DNA of 64,000 nucleotides from Pocillopora damicornis (lineage: Eukaryota). Positions 1 through 12,000 of the stretch are shown in pieces. The first letter of the stretch is position 1. Each line of letters begins with the position of its first letter. Made by a program: the position numbers. The stretch is from the NCBI RefSeq assembly GCF_003704095.1, contig NW_020847187.1, positions 310,001-374,000 of the forward strand, written 5' to 3'.

Positions 1-3000
1 AATATGACATGATTAGTAGGAATGTATGCAGATGTAAAGCTTTGTGAGAGTTTCCGAAAAGTCAGATCACTGTTTCACTTAGACAGGAAACTTTTAAAAT
101 CTATGAAGCCTAACAATAGGTAAATAGAATTTAAAAGATAACCTATCTTTTTCATTGTTTTGTTCAGTTTTTGCATTATGTATTCTGAGGCTGATCACTA
201 TGGCTACACACCAATAAAACAGTAAAGACTCTGAATTTCTTCAATTTCTTCAATTGCAATACATTTGACCCTTACACTTTCAGGGTAAAATTGACCTCAA
301 TATCAATATTGTCACTTTTTTCAAATTTTCAACAAAAAGTTGAACTTTTCCTGCTAAGAGTCTGAGTACTTTAAGCACAAGACAGGTGCACTACACAAGC
401 TACTAAAGGCTTGTTTCAACCCAAACAGTGATTGTTTTGATGAGGAGATTACAGCATAAGATTAGGAGCTGCTTTCAAGCATACTCCTTGGTCCTGGTAT
501 TAATTTATTGCTTCCTATGTAAATCAAGAAAAGATGATTCTACAGCAATTTACCATGTCATAACAAAGAAACCCTCACAACCGATGAAATTGTAACTTTA
601 CCGCAAAATTAATTCCTTGGTGTATAATATACACAGAAGCTGTAAGAAAGGGCAATTTACATGATGAAATATTTAAATCACGACAGAATGCTTGTATGCT
701 CGTGAGCGACTGATTAAATTTCTTTTAGAAACGGAAAAAAACGTCTTTCGTGAGATGAAACAAACAGACTTGCCTTCTAGTATAAGGCATGCGCATAAAT
801 GCTATTCTGAAAAAGGATGTTAATAAAATAGTGAACTTCATATCGTAATCTTTGTCTTTTGTGCGCTACTTGTTATTTAGCAATCTGAAAAAAAACAAAA
901 TCCTTGACTCCAAAATGTTTACACTCCAACAGGGAACTAAAGCTTATTTCTATCCTGCATATCTTTACGAAAAGTTGCCTCGTTTCTTTCGCACGTTTCC
1001 CTTAAGACCTCGTCTTTATTTTGGTGCGTAGGCGATCTCTGTATTCAAAGCCTAGTTAGCTTATATTTAACATGTTTCAACCATTATATGTAAATATCGT
1101 TCTGTAAGCAAACCGCTACCAAATAATTCGAGTTTGATAAAAATTCTCGCATGGAGCTTCCGAATGGCGAGACTACAAGTATCAAGGCATTAATAGAAAT
1201 ATACAAAACTAAACAGCGGTTTGTTCGCCATAAAAGCACTTGCCGAAGCAATAAACAATCTTGTGTCGGTACAAATCGATCGATCTAAAATAAGCGGCTA
1301 GCCAGAGCCCGGAAATATTCAGTTAACAGGTTGTTTCGTCAGATCAGCTTTTAAAAGAAAAACGAACATCGCTTTTATCCAAAATCTCAAGCTTGACATT
1401 CTGATAAAACACGACCCGAACTGAACAACCTTCTTCTGAACGATATCTGGTAAAGCTGGGTATAGCTTTACAAAAATAAAAATCAAACCAGCAATCATTG
1501 CTACTTTAATCCGGGCCCAAAATGCTGTAAACTTCAGATCACGGAGAAAGAGATAAATTGAACAGAAGCGTGCTAGGCTCGTGGACGCCCAAACATCAAC
1601 TGGATCTGTGACCATGTCAATATCAGAGAATGCTCGCTACTCGAAAAGTCATGAAGCACAATTAAGATAAATAAGTATCCTTTTCAGCGCGTTTTTACAT
1701 GTTAGAATTAAAGTAAACGTAACTTCAAAAATAAATCGGCCTTAAATGTTCGATCACGGTATAGCGTATATGAAAAAAAAAAAAAGGAAAGAAAGACTCC
1801 TGTTCGATGTTGCAATTTGCCAAATATTAAAACTCAACCAAGCGTGATTCGATCGACATTGTGTATCTTAAGCTCTCGCCGAATGCGGTTTGTTGTCGAT
1901 TTGAAGTGTACAATAAAAACAACAAAGAAAAGATCACAGGAAATGCACAAGAAGTTCATGAAAAGAAGCGCAATCGAGGCTGAGGAAAATTCATGCAATC
2001 AAACGGGTATTATGTGTGCTTGAGCCGAACGACGAAATTAAATTCACGATCGGCCACTTTAACCGAAGGTGTCACTTTTCAAGAACCAAAGAACTACCGA
2101 TAGCCTACACGCACAAACGGTCTATAATTCAAAGCCGACCATCTGAGATCTAACATCCAGCGAACCTCCAGCAACAACGATCGAAAGGAAGATAGATCGT
2201 ATTGCTGACTGAGACAATCACCCCTTCTGTGAGGCGTAATTTTCTTCATATTAGTGTCAGAAGTTCAGGCGCACATTGAAAATTCGTTTTTTCCAGCTAT
2301 CTTGCGTTGGCGTTCCGCGATGGTTTTCAATGACCGCAAATATTGACAACAGGCGGCGGAAAAAAAGTAGCAATCGTCTACAGCCGCACGTATTTTGCGA
2401 TAAAAGGGTTACCAATAACTTTTCGATGACTTTAAAGATCAGTAAAGCTACGAGCGCGCACAATAATCGACACGCTTACTGACAGAGAAATATTCTAAGC
2501 CATCGATCGAGTCCCCGCATATAATAAGGAAACATAAGCACAACAGAATAGAAATCGTCCTTGCCTGGAACTTTTGTTGTGTCTCTTAGGTGGCTGAGAG
2601 GCATCGGTGACCGTTTTGTAGCCTTGTGGCTCAGCTGAAATTCCTTGGCGTTGATTTCTAGTACGAGTTGCTACGGCCGGTTGCAGAACCGAACGATATT
2701 TGTCTAACTCGCTCTCGAGTCGACGGATCAACTCATTTCTCCTTTTCAATTCCTGCTCCAAGGCCAAGATGCGGCTGTCCTTCATTTTCATTTCGGTGTT
2801 CTTCTCTTGGAGGGCCTGCTGCAGCTCTCGCAGACTGCCCATTTTCGCTGTGGTTGCCGCAGTACCCCGCCGAAAACACAAACACCCTGCCTTCTTTTTA
2901 CTCTCAGCTCGACCGCAATGCATCACTCCGCGCGCTTTATCTAATCGCCAATGGAATACTGGGAATTCATTCACCGATATCCTGAGGGTAGTTGAAAAGA

Positions 3001-9000: not shown

Positions 9001-12000
9001 AACTCAGCGTCTAAATATAGAAGAGATGTTTTATTCATTTCTCCACACAGTACCCGTAGCTTGATTAGAGTTATTTTTATAGATCAAGGTGCTTAATGTT
9101 TTTTCACTAGTGACGTAAATTTGCCTACCTCTCAAAAAATGCTTGGGAAAAGAAAAGCTTGTATCTATATAAAATGACCTTTTGAAAGGCCAGTAGAGAA
9201 ATATACGGTCACCAGTCAGGAGAATTTACTATCAGATCTTATATATCAGATATAGTCGAGTATCCTGATCGTGCCCATGCCCCTCTCGCTCCTCATATGT
9301 TTCTAGTTCTTATCGATGCCCGAAACCACACGGCCTAAGGCCTTGTTACGGGCGTTTTCAATAATCGTTCCAAAAAATTAATATGCCTTGAACATCAAAT
9401 CTGATAATTAGGACTCCATGAATCACTAATTTTCTTACCAAACTTTCCGCACATTTGTTCTTTCTTTATAAGAGCGTCAACATGCATTTTGCTGTACGGA
9501 ATCAAGATTCTACCCATTTTTCAATGACGTTTCATGACAACAGCCACTCATCCATTCGTTATCATCTTAAATGTATTGATGGCTTTTTCGGTGAAAAATT
9601 CAAATTACATGTAATTAATTTTCGCAGGTGTAACTTTAAAAATATATATCTCACTATAATTTTTTGGGCGAACCTTCACTTGTTTCATGATAAATGAAAA
9701 ACTTATTTTCGCGTCAGTTCATAAGGTTTCCATGCAAATGGTAAATCTCATTTTGCTTTATTACTTTTAGTGCACAATATCACCTCACCACAAGAACCAA
9801 TATCACTGGCATGACGCTACATTTGTGCGTCGACATGATCTGGTCTGTTCAGTTTGCTAACGATATACTTACGTTCTCCTTCTCTGTCTCTCTCCTGCTT
9901 GGGATTATTCATTGGCGGTGTCTTAGGCCGAGGCGTGTTGTTGTTTGAGTCGCTCCTGAAGAAAGGGGAATTATTTCTAGAATTCCTTGCAACCAGCTTG
10001 AACGCTGGCGAACCAATGTGATCCTGCATCTATGATTCGGTCTGAAATAACAAATGAGTGAGTAAGTACGACAGCGTCATTCGGCGGAACTAAATTAACT
10101 CACCTGGTGGTCGCTTCACAATTCAACCAATAGGACTGTGGACTTTTTCATTTCCTTTAATCAGAGGTTTAACAGAGTATGACAGTTAACATCTTAAACG
10201 TACTGAGAACGCATTATTGGTAGCCTGGTTGTCGAAACGGTAATGATGTGGAAAATGTTTCCCGCATTTGATTGATATTTCTGTCGTGAACTAGGGTCAC
10301 AGGTGCGTTTATAACGAAACTCATCGCTTCGATTGTTATGATGAAACAAGCACACCTCTTTCATCTGCTGCTTTTCTTTTCAAATTAAAAATTTCAGACG
10401 GTGAACGAGACAGTTCATTGAAAAGATGACTATTGGAAGTAATGCGTTTAAAACTTGATAGGCACTAGACGGTCGTGTGACGATTTGCACGACTCAACTT
10501 GCTTCCAATATAACACCTCCCTCAGACCGCCATTAAAACAGATACACACATACACACACGAGTGGACGGATAGATGAACAACAAATCAATAGGAATAAAG
10601 ACATAAAGTAATTCAGTAATCGATATACAGCTACAGTCGAGCCTCTAGTAAACGACCTTCCAAAATATCGACTTTTGGTGGTCGCTTACGGGAGGTTAAA
10701 AGCAATTGATAATCATCTCTGAAAGTGGTCGCTTTTGAGAGGTAGTCGCTTTCGACGGGTTCCAGCGATAGCGATTTGGCTTGAAAACTTTTGGTATTTT
10801 TGAAAAGTGGTCGCTTATGATAGGTGGTAGCTTTTAATACGAGAGGGGGTGGCAAGGGGAGGTTCGACTGTAGTAGTAAAAACTAAAATGAATCAGTTTT
10901 GATCTATGAATAGGATAAGAAAGTGACAAAGTGATCTTTGAAGGTTACGCGGAGTGCCATTGTGCCTGACAATTACGCTTAAGGCTCGCGATGTTTGTCA
11001 AATACATTGACCATTGAGGGACAACGGTTTGCATGAGTAAATTAATGCTTCATTTCCGGACTTCTATTTATAGAGTTTTGTCAATACCAATTAGCAATAA
11101 ACAAAAAACTTTTAACGTTAATTGAAAAAGATGTTTTCCTAAAGAGTCCCAAAAGCGAAGTCTCACGAAAAGATTGTAAAGCTGTCGTTGCAGTATTTGG
11201 TATTGAAAACTTTTTCACTTACGGGAACTCCATTCTGGGACATTGTGACAAACTGATATACAGGAGAGGTCTCAGGCGCAAGTGAATGAATGAACCGTAC
11301 TGGGATCAATTATTTAGAACTGAAACGCTCTTTCCAAGAGCAATGGAAAAGAGGAAAATGTTAAAAAAACAACCGTTAGCGTGGAAGCAGGGTAAGGTAT
11401 GTTACCCTCTCATTGAATTCTACAACAGTGTCCCACCAAATCTGGCGCAGAAGCCCAAACTGCTCTCCGAACATTTTGTAACTAAGATCATTTTATAAAT
11501 TAATTATGCCCTAATCCTCTCTTTTAAGCAATCAAACAAAAATACATACATTGGAGACAAGGTAAAAAGTCCTACTTGAAATATCCGTGATTGCAGGGAA
11601 GACAGCGGACAGAGCGTCAGAGGTCCTTGAGAAATGAAAAGTATCGGATGTGCCTTATTGGCGCATGAACTTGAAAAGCGGGTCAAGTACGTTTGATATT
11701 CGCCCGCAAAAAAGGAATAATAAAGTTGTCAGCATTCGTGCCAAGTTAAATCTCTCATGTCACGAACTGACTGCAATTTTTTTTTGACACTGTTTCTCGA
11801 ACTCAAAAGAAAAGAGGAAACGACAAATTCATGAATGTTTCCTCGATATCAGATCTCCTAAATAGACTTATTTAGGGTCTATGCAAAAAGCAAATAAATA
11901 CAAGAATTGGAAATTCTTATCTCAAGACTTGCTACATGTGAGCAACGATTGTATGACATAGCAATAATACCGGGCAATCGCCAGCTTGGGAGCCGGGGTC

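What the first reader, a model, noticed from the sequence alone, without database searches (positions are those of the whole stretch)
2565..10029. Vertebrate-like alpha/beta alternative first exons of PKG-I in a probable cnidarian
Seen: two separate coiled-coil + pseudosubstrate modules, each ending in a phase-2 donor about 20 residues after SAEP, so they look mutually exclusive onto one shared downstream exon. The distal one is alpha-like (RAQGVSAEP) and the proximal one beta-like (MGSLRELQ...DKYRSV). Established: mammalian PRKG1 makes Ialpha and Ibeta from alternative first exons in this order. Inference: the isoform switch is either very ancient or convergent.
Basis: partly seen in the sequence, partly recalled or inferred. 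Interest (0 to 1): 0.68.

Follow-up and report, generated by a model that had tools for sequence, protein, structure and literature searches.

The report
Alternative first exons of coral PKG
A coral gene for the cGMP-dependent protein kinase has two interchangeable front ends, each with its own pairing helix and built-in brake; public annotation already lists both forms, and one front end closely resembles one of the two mammalian forms.

Summary
On the minus strand lie two PKG-I N-terminal modules. The distal unit has two coding exons (10029-9873 and 8877-8442). The proximal unit is one first exon (2923 or 2842 to 2565). Each has a heptad coiled coil and a G[VI]SAEP pseudosubstrate, and each ends in a phase-2 donor. 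The proximal donor is GC, not GT. The shared exon is not in the window.

The exons are letter-identical to RefSeq PKG1 isoforms of Pocillopora damicornis/verrucosa: X1/X2 carry the distal unit, X3/X4 the proximal. Both types join directly to SKELIKD. The common part is identical in 5 of 5 isoform pairs. So this is one gene with mutually exclusive 5' modules, already annotated.

"Beta-like" holds: the proximal exon matches the PKG Ibeta zipper, 3NMD, at E 1.5e-11.

"Alpha-like" holds only for the pseudosubstrate (RAQGVS vs RAQGIS) and, in Nematostella, the linker end. The distal 107-residue helix matches no PKG zipper. The Ialpha zipper instead matches the proximal-type profile.

Ancient origin versus independent duplication stays open. 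Four literature searches aimed at this question found no paper on it.

The parts
9873..10029 (-). Distal unit, coding exon 1d. ATG at 10029, 52 codons plus 1 base, rich in N, P, R and S. Donor AAC|GTAAGT, phase 1. A stop codon lies directly upstream of the ATG.
   Evidence: Found verbatim in RefSeq Pocillopora isoforms X1/X2 (P0053, P0052). No Pfam family.
8878..9872 (-). Intron between exons 1d and 2d (995 nt, GT...AG).
   Evidence: sequence. The junction ...REGER|RAAALN is read by P0026, P0052 and P0053.
8442..8877 (-). Distal unit, exon 2d (436 nt: 2 + 144 codons + 2). Holds a long coiled coil, the pseudosubstrate and the linker. Donor AAG|GTATGT, phase 2.
   Evidence: Its 144 aa are found verbatim in P0052/P0053 and are 97% identical to the transcript-derived P0026.
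8552..8872 (-). Distal coiled coil (residues 2-108 of exon 2d).
   Evidence: AlphaFold2 predicts one helix over residues 2-108, with block-mean pLDDT of about 96-98 over residues 11-100. A heptad pattern with one register shift is present. The modelled homodimer is parallel and in register.
8498..8524 (-). Distal pseudosubstrate RAQGVSAEP.
   Evidence: The Ialpha motif RAQGIS is quoted from PMC9417419 passages.
2565..2923 (-). Proximal first exon, coding part. The upstream ATG at 2923 (MHCGRAESKKKAGCLCFRRGTAATTAK) is the RefSeq start. The second ATG at 2842 gives MGSLRELQ. The exon ends TCCAG at 2565, phase 2.
   Evidence: Found verbatim in RefSeq isoforms X3/X4 (P0058, P0062).
2678..2842 (-). 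Proximal leucine zipper (MGSLRELQ...DKYRSVLQP).
   Evidence: PDB 3NMD (PKG Ibeta zipper) E 1.5e-11, 31 of 54 residues identical. Pfam PKcGMP_CC E 2e-6, 27.7 bits, below the 35-bit cut-off. Heptads.
2627..2650 (-). Proximal pseudosubstrate RQGISAEP.
2559..2564 (-). GC donor (GCAAGG) of the proximal exon.
   Evidence: Homologues read ...KSS R|SKELIKD, which requires this site. Read-through 'RQ' occurs in 4 of 6 proximal-type genomic ORF fragments.
1..2558 (-). Start of the intron leading to the shared exon (SKELIKDAILDNDF...), which lies beyond the window edge.
   Evidence: In 1-2558 there is no PKG common-part match beyond one noise HSP (P0007 at 1538-1386, E 8.8).
3035..8441 (-). Intron of the distal transcript, up to the proximal exon's ORF. 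It holds no cNMP-binding or kinase coding sequence. It presumably holds the proximal promoter; a TATAA lies at 3089-3093.
   Evidence: only noise HSPs at E >= 1.8. CpG o/e is 1.2-1.47 over 801-3200 against a window mean of 0.8. The promoter role is inferred.

Best explanation
The window holds the 5' end of one PKG type I gene of the coral Pocillopora, transcribed on the minus strand. Two transcription starts give two mutually exclusive N-terminal modules.

The distal start yields exons 1d and 2d: a 52-residue low-complexity head, a helix of about 107 residues, the pseudosubstrate RAQGVSAEP and a linker. The proximal start yields a single exon: an optional MHCGRA...CLCFRRG head, an Ibeta-like zipper of about 50 residues, the pseudosubstrate RQGISAEP and a linker.

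Each module ends in a phase-2 donor (AG|) and is spliced to the same off-window exon that begins (R)SKELIKDAILDNDF. That exon continues into the two cGMP-binding domains and the AGC kinase domain.

By analogy with mammalian PKG I, the coiled coil makes the kinase a parallel homodimer and offers an isoform-specific docking surface. The pseudosubstrate sits in the catalytic cleft until cGMP releases it. The choice of promoter thus sets the partners, location and cGMP sensitivity of an otherwise identical enzyme.

Shown: exon structure, identity to annotated isoforms, an identical common part, helix and heptads, and the Ibeta likeness. Inferred: two promoters, dimerisation, autoinhibition and functional differences.

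On origin: both modules as alternatives of one gene are seen in stony corals and sea anemones, and a distal-type fragment exists in a scyphozoan. So the pair is likely as old as Cnidaria. I lean slightly towards an origin independent of the vertebrate Ialpha/Ibeta split.
For: Exon and splice anatomy.

Exons searched separately: the proximal exon gave 25 proteins at E <= 1e-3 among 244 candidates, and the named ones are PKG1 isoforms of corals and hydrozoans. The distal exon gave 13 among 1191 candidates: named PKG1 isoforms, two 'hypothetical protein' records and two unnamed, all with anthozoan source names where named.

The window exons are found verbatim in RefSeq isoforms X1/X2 (distal) and X3/X4 (proximal) of P. 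damicornis/verrucosa.

Both types join directly to SK[ED]LIK. The common part is identical in 5 of 5 pairs tested: Pocillopora x2, Porites lutea, Montipora (a cross-species pair) and Actinia tenebrosa.

P0026 (781 aa on a 3.6-kb contig) and P0007 (679 aa on a 4.8-kb contig) must come from spliced RNA. They show distal-to-common and proximal-to-common joins in related pocilloporids.

No kinase or cNMP exon lies between or upstream of the modules.

The RefSeq distal isoform P0052 matches PKG Ibeta 7LV3 at E 5.6e-273, from the pseudosubstrate onward.

The distal helix spans residues 2-108.

Homodimer model: score 0.51, best of 3 controls 0.00. The runs agree in at least 97% of contacts and the partner pLDDT is at least 87. 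The contacts are parallel and in register. The mark was reached by 21 of 30 proteins solved as pairs of one chain and 0 of 23 solved as single chains (microbes). On eukaryotes it was reached by 17 of 29 (animals 7 of 16), but by only 1 of the 7 with no older solved relative, and by 0 of 30 single chains. The model supports binding but does not show it, and coiled coils may pass from memory.

The two module types are homologous over the helix end, pseudosubstrate and linker: hhalign probability 96.4%, E 1.3e-9, 70 columns.
Against: No RNA data of this species could be inspected, so transcription starts and exclusivity rest on others' models and on relatives' transcripts.

One public model (P. 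meandrina CAH3104612.1, P0061, 925 aa) strings both modules into one protein.

The window has an AG at 2982-2984, behind a pyrimidine tract, that would accept the distal phase-2 donor in frame. The frame stays open from there into MHCGR.

The distal module gets no PKcGMP_CC hit in Pfam.

The shared exon is outside the window.
Confidence: 0.9

Rival explanations
1. Serial use: the distal and proximal modules are spliced one after the other into a single mRNA. This would give a kinase with two coiled coils and two pseudosubstrates.
For: P0061 (P. meandrina, 925 aa) is such a model. An in-frame acceptor candidate lies at 2982-2984, and the frame is open for 64 codons upstream of MGSL.
Against: P0061 reads through both donors...KKPRY... 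and ...KSSRQGRFLF..., the latter identical to intron read-through in the window. It also adds unmatched filler, as an ab initio predictor that cannot use a GC donor would. None of the 4 Pocillopora RefSeq isoforms, none of the 5 Porites lutea isoforms and neither transcript-derived protein (P0026, P0007) has both modules. The isoform lengths (785/792 against 707/714) fit exclusive use.
Confidence: 0.05
2. Two tandem PKG genes, each with its own N-terminal module.
For: The first P. damicornis annotation split the locus into two genes: RMX58609 (P0060, 248 aa, the distal exons plus intron read-through) and RMX58610 (P0059, 702 aa).
Against: No cNMP-binding or kinase coding sequence follows the distal module within the 5.4 kb before the proximal exon. 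P0060 ends in intron read-through that is letter-identical to the window ORF. The isoforms share an identical common part in 5 of 5 pairs.
Confidence: 0.02
3. Evolutionary rival A, deep homology. The two-module switch was already present in the cnidarian-bilaterian ancestor. The distal type is the Ialpha lineage and the proximal type is the Ibeta lineage.
For: The proximal type is like Ibeta (3NMD, E 1.5e-11 for the exon and 1.2e-15 for the profile). The distal RAQGVS matches Ialpha's RAQGIS in 5 of 6 positions. The Nematostella distal linker RKFSKSDR matches Ialpha's RKFTKSER in 6 of 8 positions at the same exon end, whereas Ibeta has YPKSPQ there. The splice junction is at the same place and the next exon is the same.
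Against: The Ialpha zipper matches the proximal-type profile (1ZXA 3.2e-5, 4R4L 6.2e-4, 4R4M 5.3e-3). It does not match the distal-type profile: 0 PKG chains among 40 hits at E <= 10, and none for the exon or its last 59 residues. In Drosophila 'for', only one N-terminal group carries a zipper and an autoinhibitory sequence (PMC10299703 passages). The pseudosubstrate is short and constrained by the kinase's substrate preference. No bilaterian invertebrate could be sampled here.
Confidence: 0.3
4. Evolutionary rival B, independent duplication. The ancestor had one Ibeta-like zipper exon. Cnidarians added a distal module with a new long coiled coil, and vertebrates separately duplicated the exon into alpha and beta.
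For: Both vertebrate zippers resemble the cnidarian proximal type and neither resembles the distal helix. Distal and proximal types are homologous only over their last 70 columns or so. Some hydrozoan-like proximal-type sequences (P0023-P0025) carry a Cys in the column of the only Cys of the Ialpha zipper.
Against: It needs the RAQG pseudosubstrate and the RKF.KS.R linker end either to be ancestral and kept twice, or to be convergent.
Confidence: 0.5

Closest known systems
Mammalian PRKG1 isoforms PKG Ialpha and Ibeta (alternative 5' exons)
   Same: One gene. Two alternative N-terminal modules, each with a dimerising zipper, a pseudosubstrate with G or A at P0 followed by [IV]SAEP, and a linker. 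Both join the same exon beginning SK[DE]LIKEAILDNDF. The proximal module is 57% identical (31 of 54) to the Ibeta zipper.
   Different: The distal unit has two coding exons, a 52-residue low-complexity head and a helix of about 107 residues with no detectable likeness to the Ialpha zipper. The proximal pseudosubstrate has G, not A, at P0. The proximal donor is GC. The order of the exons in mammals could not be checked.
Drosophila foraging (for), a PKG I orthologue with four promoters
   Same: Alternative promoters give N-terminal protein variants on an identical cGMP-binding and kinase body (PMC10299703 passages).
   Different: In the fly, only the P1/P1alpha/P3 group has a zipper and an autoinhibitory sequence; P2/P4 lack both. 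In the coral, both alternatives carry a full coiled coil plus pseudosubstrate.
RefSeq annotation of the same gene: cGMP-dependent protein kinase 1 isoforms X1-X4 in Pocillopora damicornis/verrucosa, with like sets in Porites lutea, Montipora, Acropora, Orbicella, Actinia tenebrosa and Nematostella
   Same: Letter-identical exons and the same joins.
   Different: It is an automatic annotation. The four literature searches aimed at the question found no paper that discusses these isoforms or compares them with Ialpha/Ibeta.
PKG II (PRKG2)
   Same: N-terminal zipper plus pseudosubstrate (AKAGVS; PMC9417419 passage).
   Different: It is a separate gene with a different pseudosubstrate. The Pocillopora protein's best solved relative is PKG I (7LV3, E 5.6e-273).

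Membership tests
PKG type I N-terminal regulatory module | Leucine/isoleucine-zipper coiled coil at the N-terminus (Pfam PKcGMP_CC) | tested here: met
   Proximal exon: 3NMD E 1.5e-11. Pfam PKcGMP_CC E 2e-6, but 27.7 bits is below the 35-bit cut-off. Heptads.
PKG type I N-terminal regulatory module | The same feature, tested on the distal exon | tested here: inconclusive
   It is a coiled coil: helix 2-108, heptads, and a parallel dimer model with score 0.51 against a best control of 0.00 (with the caveats given there). It has no PKcGMP_CC hit and no PKG zipper hit in the PDB.
PKG type I N-terminal regulatory module | Autoinhibitory pseudosubstrate with G/A in place of the phospho-acceptor, followed by [IV]SAEP | tested here: met
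   RAQGVSAEP (8498-8524) and RQGISAEP (2627-2650). Reference motifs from PMC9417419.
PKG type I (whole enzyme) | The module is joined to two cNMP-binding domains and an AGC kinase domain | tested here: met
   Not in the window. RefSeq proteins that contain the window's exons verbatim carry PF00027 and PF00069 and match 7LV3 at E 5.6e-273.
Alternative-first-exon isoform pair of the PRKG1 kind | Mutually exclusive use from separate promoters | not testable with these tools
   Supported indirectly by annotated isoforms, an identical common part in 5 of 5 pairs, and relatives' transcript-derived proteins. No RNA or 5'-end data of this species could be read.
Orthologue of the vertebrate Ialpha exon (distal module) | Zipper sequence like the Ialpha zipper, including its single Cys | tested here: not met
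   No hit to 1ZXA, 4R4L or 4R4M. There is no Cys in the distal helix. That this Cys is C42, the redox site, is recalled; it is in line with the abstract start of PMC12554140 (listing) and with Leu at that place in 4R4M.
Orthologue of the vertebrate Ialpha exon (distal module) | Ialpha-type pseudosubstrate RAQGIS and linker end RKFTKSER | tested here: inconclusive
   RAQGVS matches in 5 of 6 positions. The linker end is 6 of 8 in Nematostella but reads KHCPKKPR in this window. The motifs are short.
Orthologue of the vertebrate Ibeta exon (proximal module) | MG(S/T)LR(D/E)LQ.ALQEK ... ELDKYRSV zipper | tested here: met
   31 of 54 residues identical to 3NMD. The profile gives E 1.2e-15.

The most novel reading that the evidence does not exclude
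The PKG-I alpha/beta switch is not a vertebrate invention. It would be an alternative-first-exon system more than 600 million years old, inherited from the cnidarian-bilaterian ancestor. The distal long-helix module would be the Ialpha lineage, keeping RAQG[VI]S and the RKF.KS.R linker end. The proximal module would be the Ibeta lineage. Flies and other bilaterians would have lost one module.
Probability: 0.3. Interest if true: 0.6.

Novelty: new member of a known kind. Interest (0 to 1): 0.38.

Why it matters
PKG I isoforms differ only in their first 100 residues or so, yet they differ in cGMP sensitivity, partners and location (PMC10299703 and PMC9417419 passages). A second animal lineage that keeps two complete zipper-plus-pseudosubstrate front ends on one kinase body is therefore useful. 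One front end is 57% identical to the human Ibeta zipper. This offers a natural comparison for what these modules must conserve, and a way to date the isoform switch.

The practical gain is modest. The isoforms are already in RefSeq, and the window lacks the shared exon.

The locus also shows how gene models go wrong. Three public annotations of it disagree (split, fused, or alternative), partly because of a GC donor.

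Tried and rejected
- The full HMMER scan of 1.84 billion representatives with the distal exon gave 13 hits at E <= 1e-3. These were 11 short fragments with the PKG-type pseudosubstrate or helix and 2 bacterial coiled-coil proteins. The library keeps one protein per 50%-identity cluster, so full-length isoforms hide behind one representative. This says nothing about bilaterians.
- A profile search with the distal-type alignment A1 for longer proteins found the same 12 anthozoan proteins. The candidate list was cut at 8000, so this is weak evidence of absence elsewhere.
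- The ESM Atlas look-alike search returned generic coiled-coil clusters, with recognition below the stated mark. I dropped it.
- Pfam's Med28 hit on the distal exon (29.1 bits) is coiled-coil noise.
- Rfam found 0 matches in the window.
- Literature: sought papers on cnidarian PKG isoforms or on the evolution of the PKG first exons. sought a cited PKG survey and papers that print the pseudosubstrate motif. None of the listed titles or abstract starts deals with the question. Searches gave nothing on the order of the mammalian first exons, and the passage read in PMC8196906 was irrelevant.
- The survey of metazoan PKGs cited as reference 31 in PMC12608923 could not be found in the library. It may bear on the question, as may supplementary files, which are closed.
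- The collections genome contigs, phages, plasmids and E. coli genomes hold no animal genomes and were not used. The closed collections metagenome contigs and viral contigs were not searched.

Full report
WHAT IS THERE

The window is AT-rich animal DNA (GC 0.32-0.43) with three short N runs, which I left untouched. It is not human.

A third frame, starting with the ATG at 10029, holds a low-complexity head. Reading the DNA gives three coding exons:
- Exon 1d, 10029-9873, donor AAC|GTAAGT, phase 1.
- Exon 2d, 8877-8442, acceptor AACAG|G, donor AAG|GTATGT, phase 2.
- The proximal exon, with in-frame ATGs at 2923 and 2842, ending at 2565 before GCAAGG. This is a GC donor, phase 2.

A six-frame scan finds only these two pseudosubstrate sites in the window.

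HOW I SEARCHED

I searched each exon's translation separately. Where a full-length protein was needed I used database proteins by their ids.

IDENTITY

The proximal exon finds 25 proteins at E <= 1e-3 among 244 candidates. The named ones are 'cGMP-dependent protein kinase 1' isoforms of Porites, Acropora, Montipora, Desmophyllum, Hydractinia and Clytia. The distal exon finds 13 among 1191 candidates. Nine are named PKG1 records of Porites, Montipora, Orbicella, Actinia and Nematostella; two are 'hypothetical protein' records of Oculina and Actinostola; two are unnamed.

Cluster look-ups show that the best hits sit with RefSeq isoforms of Pocillopora damicornis and P. verrucosa. The window's exons occur letter for letter in X1/X2 (distal) and X3/X4 (proximal). 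The window is therefore Pocillopora, and the isoforms are already in the public annotation.

ONE GENE, EXCLUSIVE USE

Several results point the same way:
- In all these proteins, either module runs straight into (R/K)SK[ED]LIK[DE]AILDNDF.
- The part from there to the end is identical in 5 of 5 distal/proximal pairs compared: Pocillopora X1/X3 and X2/X4, Porites lutea X1/X5, Montipora (a cross-species pair) and Actinia tenebrosa X1/X2.
- P0026 (781 aa on a 3.6-kb contig) and P0007 (679 aa on a 4.8-kb contig) can only come from spliced RNA. They show both joins in related pocilloporids.
- A tblastn of nine PKG proteins against the window finds the N-terminal exons, weak cross-matches between the two modules (E 1e-4 to 0.075) and noise at E >= 0.1. 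So no kinase body follows the distal module, and the shared exon lies beyond position 1.

Three public annotations of this locus disagree:
- The first P. damicornis annotation split it into two genes. One of them is the distal exons plus intron read-through that is identical to the window. The other avoids the GC donor.
- A P. meandrina model fuses both modules into 925 aa, reading through both donors.
- RefSeq has them as alternatives.

The fused model looks like an artefact. Against that, the window does have an in-frame AG at 2982-2984 that could accept the distal donor. I give serial use 5%.

THE MODULES

Proximal module. It has a heptad zipper over residues 1 to about 52. It matches the PKG Ibeta zipper 3NMD at E 1.5e-11, with 31 of 54 residues identical, and the Ialpha zipper 1ZXA only at E 0.11. 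Pfam PKcGMP_CC scores E 2e-6 but falls below the cut-off.

Distal module. AlphaFold2 gives one helix over residues 2-108, with block-mean pLDDT of about 96-98 over residues 11-100, and a disordered tail that holds the pseudosubstrate. Heptads run throughout with one register shift.

A two-copy model of the distal helix is a parallel, in-register dimer:
- Score 0.51, best of 3 controls 0.00.
- The runs agree in at least 97% of contacts and the partner pLDDT is at least 87.
- The mark was reached by 21 of 30 proteins solved as pairs of one chain and 0 of 23 solved as single chains (microbes).
- On eukaryotes it was reached by 17 of 29 (animals 7 of 16), but by only 1 of the 7 with no older solved relative, and by 0 of 30 single chains.
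- The tool's verdict is that this supports binding but does not show it. A coiled coil may pass from memory.

The distal exon, its last 59 residues and a profile of eight distal-type sequences (A1) hit no PKG chain in the PDB: 0 of 23 at E <= 1, 0 of 2 at E <= 10, and 0 of 40 at E <= 10. Distal and proximal profiles are nevertheless homologous over the helix end, pseudosubstrate and linker (hhalign 96.4%, E 1.3e-9, 70 columns).

ALPHA OR BETA?

Passages of PMC9417419 give the pseudosubstrates as RAQGIS (Ialpha), KRQAIS (Ibeta) and AKAGVS (II).
- The distal RAQGVS matches Ialpha in 5 of 6 positions.
- The proximal QRQGIS shares RQ.IS with Ibeta but has G at P0.
- A stretch of the Nematostella distal-type isoform aligns its linker end RKFSKSDR to RKFTKSER of the Ialpha constructs 3SHR, 7SSB and 7MBJ. 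The Ibeta chains 7LV3 and 4Z07 have YPKSPQ there. In this window the linker end reads KHCPKKPR, which is less alike.
- Against alpha orthology, the cnidarian proximal-type profile (A2) hits the Ialpha zippers (1ZXA 3.2e-5, 4R4L 6.2e-4, 4R4M 5.3e-3) as well as Ibeta (1.2e-15).
- Some hydrozoan-like proximal-type sequences carry a Cys in the column of the Ialpha zipper's only Cys.

So 'beta-like' is sound. 'Alpha-like' is true of the autoinhibitory end only.

HOW OLD?

- Both types occur as isoforms of one gene in stony corals and in a sea anemone.
- The proximal type occurs in Hydra, Hydractinia and Clytia.
- A distal-type fragment is named for the scyphozoan Sanderia malayensis.
- In 7 of 7 distal-type genomic fragments, the codon after the exon end reads R or G followed by a residue whose codons can begin with T. 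This fits a conserved (A/G)G|GT phase-2 donor.

The pair is thus probably as old as Cnidaria (inference). I could not sample bilaterian invertebrates. In Drosophila 'for', only one N-terminal group has a zipper and an autoinhibitory sequence (PMC10299703 passages). I put deep homology with the vertebrate switch at 0.3 and independent duplication at 0.5.

My recollection, which is uncertain, is that the human Ibeta exon is the 5'-most.

MECHANISM (INFERRED FROM MAMMALIAN PKG I)

Promoter choice selects the dimerisation and docking helix and the pseudosubstrate. The pseudosubstrate blocks the cleft until cGMP binds. CpG o/e is raised around the proximal exon (1.2-1.47 over 801-3200, against 0.8 for the window) and is 1.19-1.25 just upstream of exon 1d. 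A TATAA lies at 3089-3093. These are weak hints of two promoters, not evidence.

VERDICT

The feature is real and correctly read, apart from the GC donor, the two-exon distal unit and the off-window shared exon. It is already annotated as isoforms in RefSeq. Four literature searches aimed at the question and two side searches found no paper that discusses it. It is a new member of a known kind, of moderate interest.

Noticed in passing
window 2559-2564 (-): The proximal first exon uses a GC donor (AG|GCAAGG). Read-through 'RQ' after the exon end in 4 of 6 proximal-type genomic ORF fragments suggests the GC donor is conserved in several hexacorals. The other two fragments, whose sources are unnamed, end in K plus a stop, as a GT donor would give. 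The first P. damicornis annotation avoided the site and lost residues (RHNK|KLIKD).
   Followed up: partly
window 2843-3034 (-): The frame is open for 64 codons upstream of MGSLRELQ. MHCGRAESKKKAGCLCFRRG... (ATG at 2923) is conserved in Porites, Acropora and Montipora. A related ...SCLCF(H/Q)R... stands before MGSL in Actinia. Hydrozoans instead have MFKFFH plus a Ser/Gly-rich head. This may be an alternative translation start with a Cys-rich head of unknown role. An AG at 2982-2984 is in frame with the distal donor.
   Followed up: partly
off-window (proteins P0052/P0053 and P0058/P0062): Isoforms X1/X3 differ from X2/X4 by a 7-residue insert (RQIQEIE) between the second cGMP-binding domain and the kinase domain. 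It is probably an optional micro-exon. Porites lutea shows a like difference.
   Followed up: no
proteins P0059, P0060, P0061 (same locus in Pocillopora annotations): Three public gene models of this locus disagree. It is split into two genes (P. damicornis, first annotation), fused into one 925-aa protein with both modules (P. meandrina), or given as alternative isoforms (RefSeq).
   Followed up: yes
proteins P0023, P0024, P0025 (unnamed, hydrozoan-like): Their zipper reads ELDKCRSVLQP. The Cys is in the column that aligns to the only Cys of the mammalian Ialpha zipper (KLHKCQSVL; Leu in 4R4M).
   Followed up: partly
window 24746-26563 (-): An uninterrupted 606-codon frame carries an ERG4/ERG24 sterol-reductase domain (Pfam E 3.1e-107, residues 233-606). 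Its N-terminal extension holds a 24-nt tandem repeat (26179-26362) that codes repeated NGHVPDLQ-like units. It is an intronless sterol reductase or lamin-B-receptor-like gene, about 14.7 kb upstream of the PKG start.
   Followed up: partly
window 42442-43218 and 41390-41662 (-): A phosphonoacetaldehyde hydrolase (phosphonatase) lies in two exons. NCBIfam TIGR01422 scores E 1.2e-77, 260.6 bits, above its 220-bit cut-off; the second piece covers profile positions 201-251. A 10-base N run (42405-42414) sits just beyond the first exon.
   Followed up: partly
window 38778-38892: A perfect 12-nt tandem repeat, 9.6 copies (TGCACACTTGTT). It reads as VCKQ or FAHL repeats in open frames and is probably non-coding.
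   Followed up: no
window 22836-22854, 34660-34759, 42405-42414: Three N runs (129 bases in all). I left them as they are.
   Followed up: no
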